From NCBI RefSeq assembly GCF_057098645.1, contig NZ_CM169472.1: a stretch of 64,000 nt of DNA. One strand, given 5' to 3'. The stretch's first letter is position 1. Every line of letters starts with the position of its first letter. Made by a program: the position numbers and the translations under genes. The notes beneath the pieces were generated by a model. That model made no database searches. It saw only the letters and a program-made list of their open reading frames with translations, and was not told the origin of the DNA. Positions 9,133 to 43,709 of the stretch are shown here, in pieces.

Positions 9133-10491
9133 TCAGGAATCTGGCATGTTGTTGTTTTTCACAAACAACGTCAGCTTATCGCCTGGTTGCAGATTCGCAG
9201 TGTCGCTGTTCCAGCGCATCACATCTTTGATGTTCACGCCGTGGCGTTTAGCAATGCTTGAAAGCGAATCGCCTTTGCGCACACGATACGTAATGCTATC
9301 GCTGTTGTTTGCCAGTCGCTGTGCGCTACTGCCTGCGCCAATCGTCAAACTTTGGCCTGGCTTCAGCTTAGATCCGCGCAGTTTGTTCCACTGCTGCAAA
9401 TCTTTGGTGCTTACGCCGAGACGTGAAGCGATACTTGAAAGCGTGTCGCCAGAGCGTACGGTGTAAACACGGCTGTTAAGCGGCGTATTGTCGGCAACCA
9501 GCGTCGACTGTACAGCAGCAATTTCGCCTGAAGCCAGAGATTCACGCAGTTGATCTGCATGCTTCTTTGGCACCATCACGTACTGCGGACCACTTGCGCC
9601 CAGCGTGGAGCCTTTCACGCCAGCGTTGAATGTCTTCAGCTTGCTGACGGAAATCCCCGCCATATCTGCAACCTTCGCCATTTCAACCGGGCTGCTCAGG
9701 TGCACACGCGCCAGAGCACGGCTTTCATCGGTCGTTGGCAGACGTACGCCATAACGCTTGCTGTTTTTGAGAATATCACTCAATGCCAGCATTTTAGGCA
9801 CGTACTGCTTCGTTTCCTGCGGCAACGGTAACGACCAGAAGTCCGTGGATTTCCCACGCGCTTTGTTCGTTTTAATTGCCTTCATGACCCGACCTTCGCC
9901 GCTGTTATAAGCCGCTACGGTCAGAAGCCAGTCGCCGTCAAACATTTTGTTCAGACGCTGCATCATGTTCAGCGCGGCAGTTGTTGAAGCAACAACATCG
10001 CGACGCGCGTCATAATTGCGGGTCTGTTTCAAACCATAATTGCGCCCCGTGCTCGGAATGATCTGCCAGATGCCTGCGGCATTGGCACCAGACGTTGCGT
10101 GAGGATCAAAAGCGCTCTCCACTATGGGTAGTAGTACCAGTTCCATAGGCATGTTACGTTTTTTAACTTGCCCGGCTATCCAGTACATATACGGCTCTGC
10201 CCGTAAAGTTACATCGTGGAGATAGCTCTTATTGCGTAAATATTTCTGTTTCTGTTCGCGAATCCGGTCATTTTCCGGAATTCCCATCTTTAGCTCGTCG
10301 CCAATGAAAGCCCACAAGTCACCATCTGGCGCGATAGACGTCCCATCGTCCATCCATCGTGCCTGACTTGTAAACTTTGCTGCTTCCCCTTGACCAGCTG
10401 CAGAAAGGCTCTGTGCGTGCTGTTGAACGTTGCCGGTACTCTGGCAACCCACGAGCAGGACAGAGGCGAGTAATATCGCTTTTGCCTTCAT
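9133..10491 (-). CDS. mltD: membrane-bound lytic murein transglycosylase D (lipoprotein, LysM repeats)
   Basis: 452-aa ORF, lipoprotein signal LLVGC, SLT domain, two C-terminal LysM repeats. Confidence 0.9.
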   Translation of the reverse strand: MKAKAILLASVLLVGCQSTGNVQQHAQSLSAAGQGEAAKFTSQARWMDDGTSIAPDGDLWAFIGDELKMGIPENDRIREQKQKYLRNKSYLHDVTLRAEPYMYWIAGQVKKRNMPMELVLLPIVESAFDPHATSGANAAGIWQIIPSTGRNYGLKQTRNYDARRDVVASTTAALNMMQRLNKMFDGDWLLTVAAYNSGEGRVMKAIKTNKARGKSTDFWSLPLPQETKQYVPKMLALSDILKNSKRYGVRLPTTDESRALARVHLSSPVEMAKVADMAGISVSKLKTFNAGVKGSTLGASGPQYVMVPKKHADQLRESLASGEIAAVQSTLVADNTPLNSRVYTVRSGDTLSSIASRLGVSTKDLQQWNKLRGSKLKPGQSLTIGAGSSAQRLANNSDSITYRVRKGDSLSSIAKRHGVNIKDVMRWNSDTANLQPGDKLTLFVKNNNMPDS

Positions 10492-43204: not shown

Positions 43205-43450
43205 GGGCTGTATATCAACAGGAAGAATACATCCCTAAGCGGTTAATGCTGGCGTAATCAATAGACCAGCATTAATCACAGATGATTACCAATCAGACAG
43301 AAATGGTTAAATCGTCGAATTCATATTTAATACGTTTTCTTATGCCGCTGAACAGCTTGAAAAGGATGCATATTTTAAATATCAGTGAAATGAACAGTTT
43401 ATTGCCGTTATTAATAGAAATGGAGGGATAAATACGCGTATTCTACTGTT
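43205..43450. repeat. paralogous copy of the ykgMO-flanking sequence (copy A), containing a hairpin and a short 3' remnant of an rpmJ-like gene
   Basis: Aligns with 61858-61965 and 62686-62768; 43335-43367 resembles the 3' end of ykgO. Confidence 0.7.
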
Positions 43451-43709
43451 GCAACAAAAACAACGATATTGATCGGTTTTCATAATGAAGTAACCTGACA
43501 GATATGAAAATGTTGATTGAGGCTAAATGCCCGGATTAAGGTTGTCGAGGGGAGCCAGGTGGTTTTTTCTTTTGGATGATCTCCATTGCTGGATAGTCCC
43601 CTTGTACAGATAAGTCTGATCTTTCTCGCTCAAAGCAGACCCTGGAATTGAACGCAGAGGGACTACCTGACACAATTTTGCACAGTGAAGAGTCGGTCGT
43701 TATTAACGT

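What the first reader, a model, noticed from the sequence alone, without database searches (positions are those of the whole stretch)
43205..43450. Paralogous copy of the ykgMO flanks with the ribosomal-protein genes missing
43205-43370 aligns with the sequence 3' of ykgO (61858-61965), and 43370-43450 aligns with 62686-62768 upstream of ykgM. In copy A the two flanks are contiguous, joined by a 34-bp segment resembling the 3' end of ykgO. Both copies carry a hairpin (43242-43274 and 61881-61914) with compensating substitutions. In copy B the stem is intact only in the minus-strand RNA (a G-U wobble there is a C-A mismatch on the plus strand) and is followed by UUUU, so it is probably the ykgMO terminator. 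This points to an ancestral duplication or transfer of the zinc-independent ribosomal-protein cassette with later deletion in one copy.
Basis: seen in the sequence. Interest (0 to 1): 0.5.

Follow-up and report, generated by a model that had tools for sequence, protein, structure and literature searches.

The report
Dead second copy of ykgMO cassette
This is a decayed, non-functional leftover of a second copy of the E. coli zinc-independent ribosomal-protein cassette (ykgL-ykgO-ykgM-ykgR) lying 18.6 kb upstream of the live copy; it is ordinary genome debris, partly annotated already, though it marks an old duplication or transfer.

Summary
Window 43211-43483 (copy A) is collinear with the two ends of the live cassette (copy B, 61850-62768). 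The left part is 80% identical (E 5e-18) and the right part 94% (E 1e-33). They are joined by about 38 nt that still read as the last 12 codons of ykgO.

About 0.68 kb is missing, lost at a CTT(A/G)AAA microhomology: most of ykgO, all of ykgM, the Zur box and the promoter region.

RefSeq already annotates this as a ykgR pseudogene. In this window the copy B ykgR is cut by IS2.

Copy A lies next to tRNA-Thr (thrW). It occurs in about 17% of complete E. coli genomes and had the deletion wherever I inspected it. It varies like neutral DNA.

The hairpin is conserved as minus-strand RNA in E. coli and E. albertii, so it is probably the ykgMO 3' hairpin or terminator. In copy A it has one broken pair and no U-tract.

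A and B are direct repeats. One rare lineage carries an A-left/B-right fusion and lacks the whole pao-ecp-ykgMO block. Verdict: ordinary relic, low interest.

The parts
43211..43324 (-). Copy A, left segment. Homologue of the region 3' of ykgO, which is also the 3' part of the ykgL ORF on the + strand.
   Evidence: 79.6% identity to 61850-61960, E 5e-18. Alignments.
43243..43275 (-). Copy A hairpin: a decayed copy of the ykgO-downstream hairpin. Ten perfect pairs, then G.U, a C.C break and two more pairs on the minus strand. No U-tract follows.
   Evidence: Folds. Pair table; pair 22-32 is broken in all A copies.
43325..43362 (-). Relic of the last ~12 codons of ykgO (PFQAVQRHKKTY* against [13 protein letters not shown]), with a frameshift.
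43355..43366 (.). Deletion junction, at a CTT(A/G)AAA..GGAT microhomology. Other A alleles keep 8-9 extra nt here (GAAAGCAG).
43363..43410 (-). Copy A, homologue of the ykgR 3' UTR.
   Evidence: Part of the 94.1% match to 62685-62769, E 1.4e-33.
43411..43479 (-). ykgR pseudogene fragment: 22 C-terminal codons plus stop (KPINIVVFVATVEYAYLSLHFY*), preceded by a stop codon. Homology ends at 43483.
   Evidence: PGAP annotation 'small membrane protein YkgR, incomplete, missing N-terminus'. Translation. Alignments.
61850..61965 (-). Copy B, region 3' of ykgO. It overlaps the frameshifted ykgL on the + strand.
61882..61914 (-). Copy B hairpin: 14 pairs on the minus-strand RNA including one G.U, followed by UUUUCC. 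Probable 3' hairpin or terminator of the ykgMO mRNA.
   Evidence: minus strand -36.4 kcal/mol, z -5.5, against -25.6 for the plus strand..
61966..62106 (-). ykgO, type B (zinc-independent) ribosomal protein L36, intact.
62106..62369 (-). ykgM, type B ribosomal protein L31, intact.
62381..62398 (.). Zur-box palindrome upstream of ykgM, with one mismatch to the K-12 sequence. It has no counterpart at copy A.
61997..62684 (.). The stretch of copy B that is missing from copy A (about 0.67-0.69 kb): ykgO codons 1 to ~35, ykgM, the Zur box and promoter, and ~290 bp upstream.
62685..62768 (-). Copy B ykgR 3' UTR and 3' end (stop codon at 62733-62735), cut by IS2 in this strain.
62769..64000 (+). IS2, partial because it runs off the window. 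It is inserted in ykgR and masks the continuation of the A/B homology.
   Evidence: The ORF matches NCBIfam NF006928 'IS2 repressor TnpA' at 276 bits against a cut-off of 229. Strain RM9872 lacks the insertion.

Best explanation
Copy A (43211-43483) is a non-functional relic of a second ykgL-ykgO-ykgM-ykgR cassette.

Shown:
- It keeps, in order and orientation, the ykgO-downstream region with its hairpin, the last ~12 codons of ykgO, the ykgR 3' UTR and the last 22 codons of ykgR.
- It lacks ykgM, most of ykgO, the Zur box, the promoter region and the start of ykgR.
- It lies beside thrW as a direct repeat 18.6 kb upstream of the live cassette.
- It is present in about 17% of complete E. coli genomes, and it carried the deletion in every allele I inspected.

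Inferred:
- A full or nearly full second cassette arose before the E. coli radiation but after the split from E. albertii. It came either from an intragenomic (tandem) duplication followed by collapse, or from import out of a related Escherichia lineage.
- A ~0.68-kb deletion between short CTT(A/G)AAA repeats then removed the genes. The remainder has drifted neutrally.
- The hairpin is the 3' hairpin or terminator of the ykgMO mRNA, and in copy A it is only a decaying passenger.
- The relic's one consequence is as a recombination substrate. In one rare lineage an A-left/B-right fusion replaces the whole intervening LysR-hydrolase-MFS-pao-yagU-ykgJ-ecp-ykgL-ykgO-ykgM block. This most likely arose by recombination between A and B.
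For: - Significant collinear similarity to both ends of the live locus, with the ykgO remnant readable in frame.
- No Zur box at A. No YkgM or YkgO coding similarity elsewhere in the window.
- PGAP independently annotates the ykgR fragment as a pseudogene in O145, O157 and other strains.
- A-left type sequence (90% identity or more) occurs in 907 of 5426 genomes. B-type scores 60-80%, and no record's best match falls in the 80-90% band.
- In 15 of the 18 metagenome contigs holding the A-type hairpin, the ykgR segment lies 147-156 nt downstream. A sixteenth, read directly, has the same layout. In the other two the contig ends before that segment. None has ykgM or ykgO.
- Every genome allele I aligned shares the same junction.
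- A alleles differ from each other by 3-8%, against 2.5% for the neighbouring genes.
- Pairwise identities give the tree ((A,B),E. albertii) in both segments. The A-B divergence is about 0.6-0.8 of the coli-albertii divergence.
- E. albertii has ykgR-ykgM-ykgO next to csiD-lhgO-gabDT, a different locus.
- The hairpin is 95% paired on the minus strand across 6 sequences, with two pairs changed on both sides. Pair 22-32 is broken only in A copies, and the U-tract is present only in E. coli copy B.
- The fusion genomes are wlxctx60, 6EVA and GF4-3, plus metagenome contig L106.
Against: - No expression data were examined, so weak transcription or a minor RNA role of copy A cannot be excluded.
- The right segment is more similar to B (90-94%) than a purely neutral pseudogene of that age should be. 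Some gene conversion with B, or residual constraint, is needed to explain this.
- Only a sample of the 907 A-type genomes was inspected allele by allele, so a rare undeleted A copy could exist.
- The origin (duplication or import) is unresolved.
- The fusion lineage has a mosaic ykgR segment: B-like 3' UTR sites, then two A-type sites, then B-like sequence. Its haplotype is 3% from every extant B allele. A simple recent crossover does not fully explain it.
- The terminator role of the hairpin is inferred. The consensus terminator scan did not call it, and E. albertii has only a weak U-tract.
Confidence: 0.85

Rival explanations
1. Reverse history. The relic site is the native, older ykg locus (thrW ... 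relic-ykgR-oxidoreductase-fdeC, as in strains wlxctx60 and GF4-3). The 19-kb block carrying LysR-hydrolase-MFS-pao-yagU-ykgJ-ecp plus the live ykgL-ykgO-ykgM-ykgR 3' part was later inserted into ykgR from a related Escherichia lineage. The right end joined by homology and the left end by an illegitimate junction. On this view copy A is not a duplicate but the resident allele.
For: - The fusion genomes carry the same ykgOM deletion junction.
- They lack states shared by all five sampled A alleles of A+B genomes (G in ATCAGTG, G in GGAGGAAT, T in AATTAAT), so they sit outside the crown of A alleles.
- Their ykgR shares two A-type synonymous sites right up to the end of the homology.
- wlxctx60 and GF4-3 differ by 4-8% here, and no extant B allele is closer than 96.9%, so the arrangement is old.
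- E. albertii shows that the cassette can sit elsewhere.
Against: - wlxctx60 is an ordinary E. coli by proA (97%) and by the LysR-SDR genes (97.5%). The fusion was found in only 3 of 5426 genomes, whereas 5070 carry ykgMO.
- The same genomes carry other deletions nearby: an oxidoreductase remnant, and an aldo/keto-reductase fragment joined to betA.
- Their ykgR 3' segment differs from B at only 3 of 118 sites. About 11 would be expected if it belonged to the A lineage under the constraint seen between E. coli and E. albertii. That fits a B-derived or converted segment, which means recombination.
Confidence: 0.25
2. Copy A is retained because part of it works. Candidates are the hairpin as a terminator or RNA-stability element for the upstream 92-aa gene, a plus-strand RNA antisense to ykgR mRNA, or a small ORF (49 aa at 43282-43431, or 21 aa at 43366-43431).
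For: - The hairpin still folds on both strands.
- The right segment is 94% identical to B over 85 nt.
- A 21-codon ORF with a start codon is shared by A and B.
Against: - No U-tract follows the hairpin on either strand, and no terminator-like or better-than-chance promoter-like sites were found.
- No Rfam family matches.
- One hairpin pair is broken in every A copy.
- The 21-aa ORF has no start codon in E. albertii. It is not annotated in K-12 or by PGAP.
- A alleles carry indels at the junction, an 18-bp tandem expansion in GF4-3 and truncation by other islands.
- 83% of genomes lack the element.
Confidence: 0.05
3. Both regions are ends or copies of a dispersed repeat, IS or MITE family, or the similarity is due to chance or low complexity.
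For: The sequences are AT-rich, and an IS2 abuts copy B.
Against: - E-values are 1e-33 and 5e-18 within the window.
- Genomes hold a median of 1 and at most 4 places.
- The matched sequence is the annotated ykgL/ykgO/ykgR locus, not an IS. IS2 starts only at 62769 and is absent in strain RM9872.
- There are no inverted terminal repeats and no Rfam hit.
Confidence: 0.01

Closest known systems
ykgM-ykgO (rpmE2-rpmJ2) operon: Zur-repressed, zinc-independent (C-) paralogues of ribosomal proteins L31 and L36 in E. coli (reviewed in PMC9825181)
   Same: Copy A derives from this cassette. It keeps the ykgO 3' end, the downstream hairpin region and the neighbouring ykgR 3' end, in the same order and orientation.
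   Different: Copy A has no ykgM, only ~12 frameshifted codons of ykgO, no Zur box and no promoter region. It cannot supply ribosomal proteins.
ykgR, a 33-aa small membrane protein gene next to ykgM (studied, for example, in PMC7549839)
   Same: The right half of copy A is its 3' UTR plus its last 22 codons, 90-94% identical. RefSeq/PGAP already labels it a ykgR pseudogene.
   Different: It lacks the first 11 codons and the start, and is joined to unrelated DNA downstream of a LysR gene. The encoded residues differ (ATV..YLSLHFY against AIV..YLFLHFY).
Second ykgM-type gene on the urease island of EHEC (seen here next to the ure genes and a hok/gef gene)
   Same: It is another extra, ~80% identical copy of a cassette gene, carried by about 650 E. 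coli genomes including O157.
   Different: It is an intact ORF with its own palindromic box, has no ykgO, and its flanks are unrelated to copy A. It lies outside this window.
Rho-independent terminator, or 3' stabilising hairpin, in a convergent gene pair (the ykgL-ykgO 'excludon' listed in PMC12288877)
   Same: The copy B hairpin sits 52 nt after the ykgO stop. It pairs best as minus-strand RNA, is followed by UUUU, and covaries across E. coli and E. albertii.
   Different: The stem is AT-rich and the U-tract short. It was not called by the consensus scan, and no 3'-end mapping was found. The copy in A has lost the U-tract and one pair.
Pseudogene relics of segmental duplication beside tRNA integration hot spots (thrW, the site of the CP4-6 prophage in K-12)
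   Same: It is a truncated, decaying, presence/absence-polymorphic copy next to thrW. Other islands insert or delete around it.
   Different: Nothing unusual. It is notable only because the relic and the live copy are direct repeats bracketing pao, ecp and ykgMO.

Membership tests
Functional ykgMO-type (C-) L31/L36 operon | Intact type B L31 ORF | tested here: not met
   tblastn with YkgM finds only 62109-62372 in the window. Nothing between 43211 and 43483.
Functional ykgMO-type (C-) L31/L36 operon | Intact type B L36 ORF | tested here: not met
   Only ~12 C-terminal codons remain, with a frameshift and no start.
Functional ykgMO-type (C-) L31/L36 operon | Zur box upstream | tested here: not met
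   A pattern search allowing 3 mismatches finds one site only, at 62381-62398.
ykgR small membrane protein gene | Complete 33-codon ORF with a start codon | tested here: not met
   22 codons preceded by a stop codon. PGAP: 'incomplete, missing N-terminus'.
Paralogous pseudogene or relic of a segmental duplication or transfer | Significant collinear similarity to a functional locus in the same genome | tested here: met
   Two collinear same-strand matches, E 1e-33 and 5e-18, with the ykgO remnant between them.
Paralogous pseudogene or relic of a segmental duplication or transfer | Loss of coding and regulatory capacity | tested here: met
Paralogous pseudogene or relic of a segmental duplication or transfer | Neutral-like divergence and presence/absence polymorphism | tested here: met
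   A alleles differ by 3-8% with indels, against 2.5% for flanking genes. Present in 907 of 5426 genomes. No formal rate test was done.
Rho-independent terminator (copy B hairpin) | Stable stem-loop directly followed by a U-tract on the transcribed strand | tested here: inconclusive
   14-pair stem with minus-strand z -5.5, followed by UUUUCC. The consensus scan called nothing.
Rho-independent terminator (copy B hairpin) | Structure conserved by covariation | tested here: met
   95.2% of cells paired, and 2 of 14 pairs changed on both sides. Only 6 sequences were available, and 21 of 500 shuffles reached the observed value.
Rho-independent terminator (copy B hairpin) | Mapped RNA 3' end at the U-tract | not testable with these tools
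   No 3'-end data were found. Only the ykgL-ykgO convergent overlap is listed, in PMC12288877.
IS / MITE / REP dispersed repeat | Many copies per genome, terminal inverted repeats, target duplication | tested here: not met
   Median 1 and at most 4 places per genome. No Rfam match. IS2 begins only at 62769.

The most novel reading that the evidence does not exclude
The relic may be the resident, older ykg locus of E. coli. On this reading the species' only working zinc-independent ribosomal-protein operon arrived together with the common-pilus (ecp) and pao operons. They came as one ~19-kb block from a related Escherichia lineage and landed inside ykgR. The rare wlxctx60/GF4-3 lineage would then preserve the state before the insertion.
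Probability: 0.25. Interest if true: 0.4.

Novelty: new member of a known kind. Interest (0 to 1): 0.2.

Why it matters
It matters little for function: the element encodes nothing and regulates nothing detectable. Its modest value is evolutionary.

- It shows that the ykgL-ykgO-ykgM-ykgR cassette has existed in at least two copies in the E. coli lineage, and at a different site in E. albertii, so it behaves as a movable unit.
- The two copies are direct repeats bracketing pao, ecp and the live ykgMO. A rare lineage with the A-left/B-right fusion lacks all three. This offers a ready explanation for some ECP-negative, ykgMO-negative strains.
- For annotation, the ykgO remnant and hairpin could be added to the existing ykgR pseudogene call.
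- The hairpin covariation gives a specific prediction for the 3' end of the ykgMO transcript.

Tried and rejected
- Rfam at permissive E-values on both regions gave only chance-level hits.
- The promoter and terminator consensus scans gave nothing above shuffles and no terminator call.
- A scan of the one-genome-per-species collection for an exact 27-mer shared by A and B found nothing, because K-12-type alleles differ by one base.
- A YkgM-based scan returned 80 loci, but only E. albertii and one E. coli entry were from Escherichia. None of the 60 loci I checked has a tRNA-Thr nearby, so no species shows an intact cassette in the copy A context.
- The neighbours of A (LysR, alpha/beta hydrolase) and of B (hydrolase, LysR) looked like a possible larger paralogy. 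The direct comparison failed for technical reasons and was not repeated. DNA-level BLAST shows no similarity beyond 43211-43483.
- The ure-island ykgM paralogue was considered as a source of copy A and rejected. Only its coding sequence matches, and no flanks do.
- Plasmid hits in E. coli are mostly F-primes or mislabelled chromosomes. Genuine plasmid ykgMO copies in Salmonella, Klebsiella and Enterobacter are only ~72% identical.
- The 21-aa ORF antisense to ykgR has no start codon in E. albertii.
- The 92-aa neighbour has no significant Pfam match; the YdgH/BhsA-like hit has E 0.076.
- Gene conversion as the sole cause of the 94% right flank is not needed. The ratio of A-B to coli-albertii divergence is similar in both segments, although some conversion remains likely.

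Full report
**Source and setting**

The window is E. coli O145:H28-like. The copy A region is 100% identical to strains RM12581, RM13514 and RM9872.

RefSeq annotation places copy A in this order: proA, tRNA-Thr (thrW), LysR regulator (-), SDR oxidoreductase (+), 92-aa hypothetical (+), copy A, LysR regulator (-), alpha/beta hydrolase (+), MFS transporter.

Copy B lies in this order: ecpR, ykgL (+, frameshifted), ykgO (-), ykgM (-), ykgR (-), NADH-flavin oxidoreductase.

The O157:H7 map shows both copies in the same orientation, about 18.6 kb apart. They bracket LysR-hydrolase-MFS-paoDCBA-yagU-ykgJ-ecpEDCBAR.

**Checking the observation**

BLAST of the two regions gives two collinear, same-strand matches:
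- 43363-43447 against 62685-62769: 94.1% over 85 nt, E 1.4e-33.
- 43211-43321 against 61850-61960: 79.6% over 113 nt, E 5e-18.

Nothing else in the window resembles copy A.

MAFFT continues the left match past the ykgO stop codon into its last dozen codons. On the minus strand A reads PFQAVQRHKKTY* where B reads [13 protein letters not shown].

No YkgM or YkgO coding similarity exists elsewhere in the window. The Zur-box palindrome occurs once only, at 62381-62398.

**What the right flank really is**

It is the 3' UTR and 3' part of the 33-codon gene ykgR.

In this window ykgR of copy B is interrupted at 62769 by IS2. The IS2 ORF matches NCBIfam 'IS2 repressor TnpA' at 276 bits against a cut-off of 229.

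In strain RM9872 ykgR is intact, and the homology with copy A then runs on to 43483.

Copy A encodes only the last 22 residues (KPINIVVFVATVEYAYLSLHFY*), preceded by a stop codon. PGAP already annotates it as 'small membrane protein YkgR, incomplete, missing N-terminus' in every genome I opened.

**The deletion**

Relative to B, about 0.67-0.69 kb is missing (roughly 61997-62684). This covers ykgO codons 1 to ~35, ykgM, the Zur box and promoter, and ~290 bp upstream.

The junction lies in a short repeat: CCTTAAAACG on the ykgO side and ACTTACAAAAAGG on the ykgR side.

Some A alleles keep 8-9 more bases at the junction (GAAAGCAG). This is probably the older form.

**Distribution and decay**

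- A-left type sequence (90% identity or more) is found in 907 of 5426 complete genomes. B-type sequence scores 60-80%, and no record's best match falls in the 80-90% band.
- ykgMO itself is in 5070 genomes.
- Of 18 metagenome contigs with the A-type hairpin, 15 have the ykgR segment 147-156 nt downstream. One more (L100), read directly, has the same layout. In the remaining two the contig ends before that segment. None has ykgM or ykgO.
- A alleles differ by 3-8% and carry indels, including an 18-bp tandem expansion in GF4-3. The adjacent genes differ by about 2.5%. Other islands truncate copy A in some strains.
- This is the behaviour of unconstrained DNA.

**Age and origin**

E. albertii has ykgR-ykgM-ykgO with the same downstream hairpin, but next to csiD-lhgO-gabDT. 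That is a different chromosomal site.

Pairwise identities:

| Segment | A vs B | B vs E. albertii | A vs E. albertii |
|---|---|---|---|
| Left | 73-80% | 67-68% | 64-67% |
| Right | 90-92% | 85-86% | 78-82% |

Both segments give the tree ((A,B),E. albertii). The A-B split lies at roughly 0.6-0.8 of the coli-albertii depth, far deeper than the diversity within E. coli.

So the second copy arose before the E. coli radiation. It came either from duplication within the genome or from import out of a related lineage. A tandem duplication of the ~19-kb segment ending inside ykgR, followed by collapse, would produce exactly the observed ykgR'/LysR-flank joint. I could not decide between the two origins.

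The right flank is more conserved mainly because ykgR and its UTR evolve more slowly in general. Some gene conversion with B is still likely.

**The hairpin**

On the minus strand the 33-nt stem-loop of copy B has 14 pairs, including one G.U, and is followed by UUUUCC. The 111-nt minus-strand RNA folds at -36.4 kcal/mol (z -5.5), against -25.6 kcal/mol for the plus strand.

Pair changes across K-12, O145, E. albertii and three A alleles, on the minus strand:

| Pair | States seen |
|---|---|
| 7-27 | U-A, U.G, C-G |
| 12-22 | G-C in E. coli B; A-U in E. albertii; broken in every A copy |
| 11-23 | U-A or U.G |

Overall 95.2% of cells are paired and two pairs are changed on both sides. With only six sequences this is modest evidence; 21 of 500 shuffles reached the observed value.

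A published survey lists ykgL-ykgO as a convergent overlapping transcript pair (PMC12288877).

I therefore accept 'probable ykgMO 3' hairpin or terminator' as the best reading for copy B, unproven. The copy in A has no U-tract and one broken pair.

No Rfam family matches either region.

**An unexpected consequence**

I built a chimeric query from A-left plus B-right. It found three genomes (wlxctx60, 6EVA, GF4-3), and a metagenome contig shows the same layout. In all of them the relic is fused to an intact ykgR and to copy B's right flank. The whole LysR-to-ykgM block is absent.

Their ykgR segment is mosaic:
- B-like at the two 3' UTR sites where all other A alleles share a derived base.
- A-type at two synonymous sites near the end of the homology.
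- B-like beyond that point.

It is 3% from every extant B allele.

Deletion by recombination between the two direct repeats is the simpler reading, for three reasons:
- The strains are ordinary E. coli by proA.
- The arrangement is very rare.
- The ykgR 3' segment differs from B at only 3 of 118 sites.

The alternative, that this lineage preserves a pre-insertion state, is not excluded. I give it about 0.25.

**Verdict**

The object is an ordinary gene-cassette relic, part of which is already flagged in RefSeq. It has no detectable function. Its interest is limited to the history and mobility of the ykg cassette and to a rare repeat-associated loss of pao, ecp and ykgMO.

Noticed in passing
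window 62769-64000: IS2 is inserted in ykgR of the live cassette, splitting the gene after its 3' 36 nt. Other O145 genomes (RM9872, RM12581) have ykgR intact, so the insertion is strain-specific.
   Followed up: partly
window 62384 (Zur box 62381-62398): The Zur-box palindrome upstream of ykgM reads GTTGTGTTATAACATAAC here, against GTTATGTTATAACATAAC in K-12 and RM9872. The change breaks the perfect palindrome at one position. O157 TR01 has a different variant. This could slightly alter Zur repression.
   Followed up: no
L008 6002-6265 (E. coli O157:H7 EDL933 record NZ_CP124742.1), outside the window: A second, intact ykgM-type gene, 80% identical in DNA and without ykgO, lies next to a hok/gef gene and the urease cluster. 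About 650 E. coli genomes have such extra copies, up to 3 places per genome. Its flanks are unrelated to copy A.
   Followed up: partly
L090 9001-9703 and L091 9001-9720 (strains wlxctx60 and GF4-3; also 6EVA and metagenome contig L106): The relic is fused to an intact ykgR and to copy B's right flank. The 18.6-kb LysR-hydrolase-MFS-pao-yagU-ykgJ-ecp-ykgL-ykgO-ykgM block is absent. The ykgR segment shows a mosaic of A-type and B-type sites.
   Followed up: yes
L010 5018-6235 (E. albertii NBRC 107761): The ykgR-ykgM-ykgO cassette, with a ykgL-like ORF and the hairpin, sits beside a tRNA-Met-like gene, a 747-aa ORF and csiD-lhgO-gabDT. On its other side are ORFs that I recognised only by eye as resembling secreted effectors. 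This is a different locus from either E. coli copy.
   Followed up: partly
window 62688-62753 and 43366-43431 (+ strand): A 21-codon ORF (MHILNI[TS]E[VM][11 protein letters not shown][KG]) antisense to the ykgR 3' end is kept in both copies. It has no start codon in E. albertii and is not annotated in K-12, so it is probably not a gene.
   Followed up: partly
window 61706-61931 (+ strand): ykgL is frameshifted in this strain and in O157 (annotated as a pseudogene by PGAP). Its 3' end contains the ykgO-downstream hairpin, so the two transcripts must overlap if both are made.
   Followed up: no
L091 about 9230-9270 (GF4-3): The ykgO remnant carries a threefold tandem repeat of TGAACAGCT(T), an 18-bp expansion not seen in other alleles.
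   Followed up: no
plasmid records H127-H130 (Salmonella, Klebsiella aerogenes, Enterobacter hormaechei): ykgM-ykgO pairs about 72% identical to the E. coli genes occur on large plasmids of other Enterobacteriaceae, so the operon is occasionally plasmid-borne.
   Followed up: no
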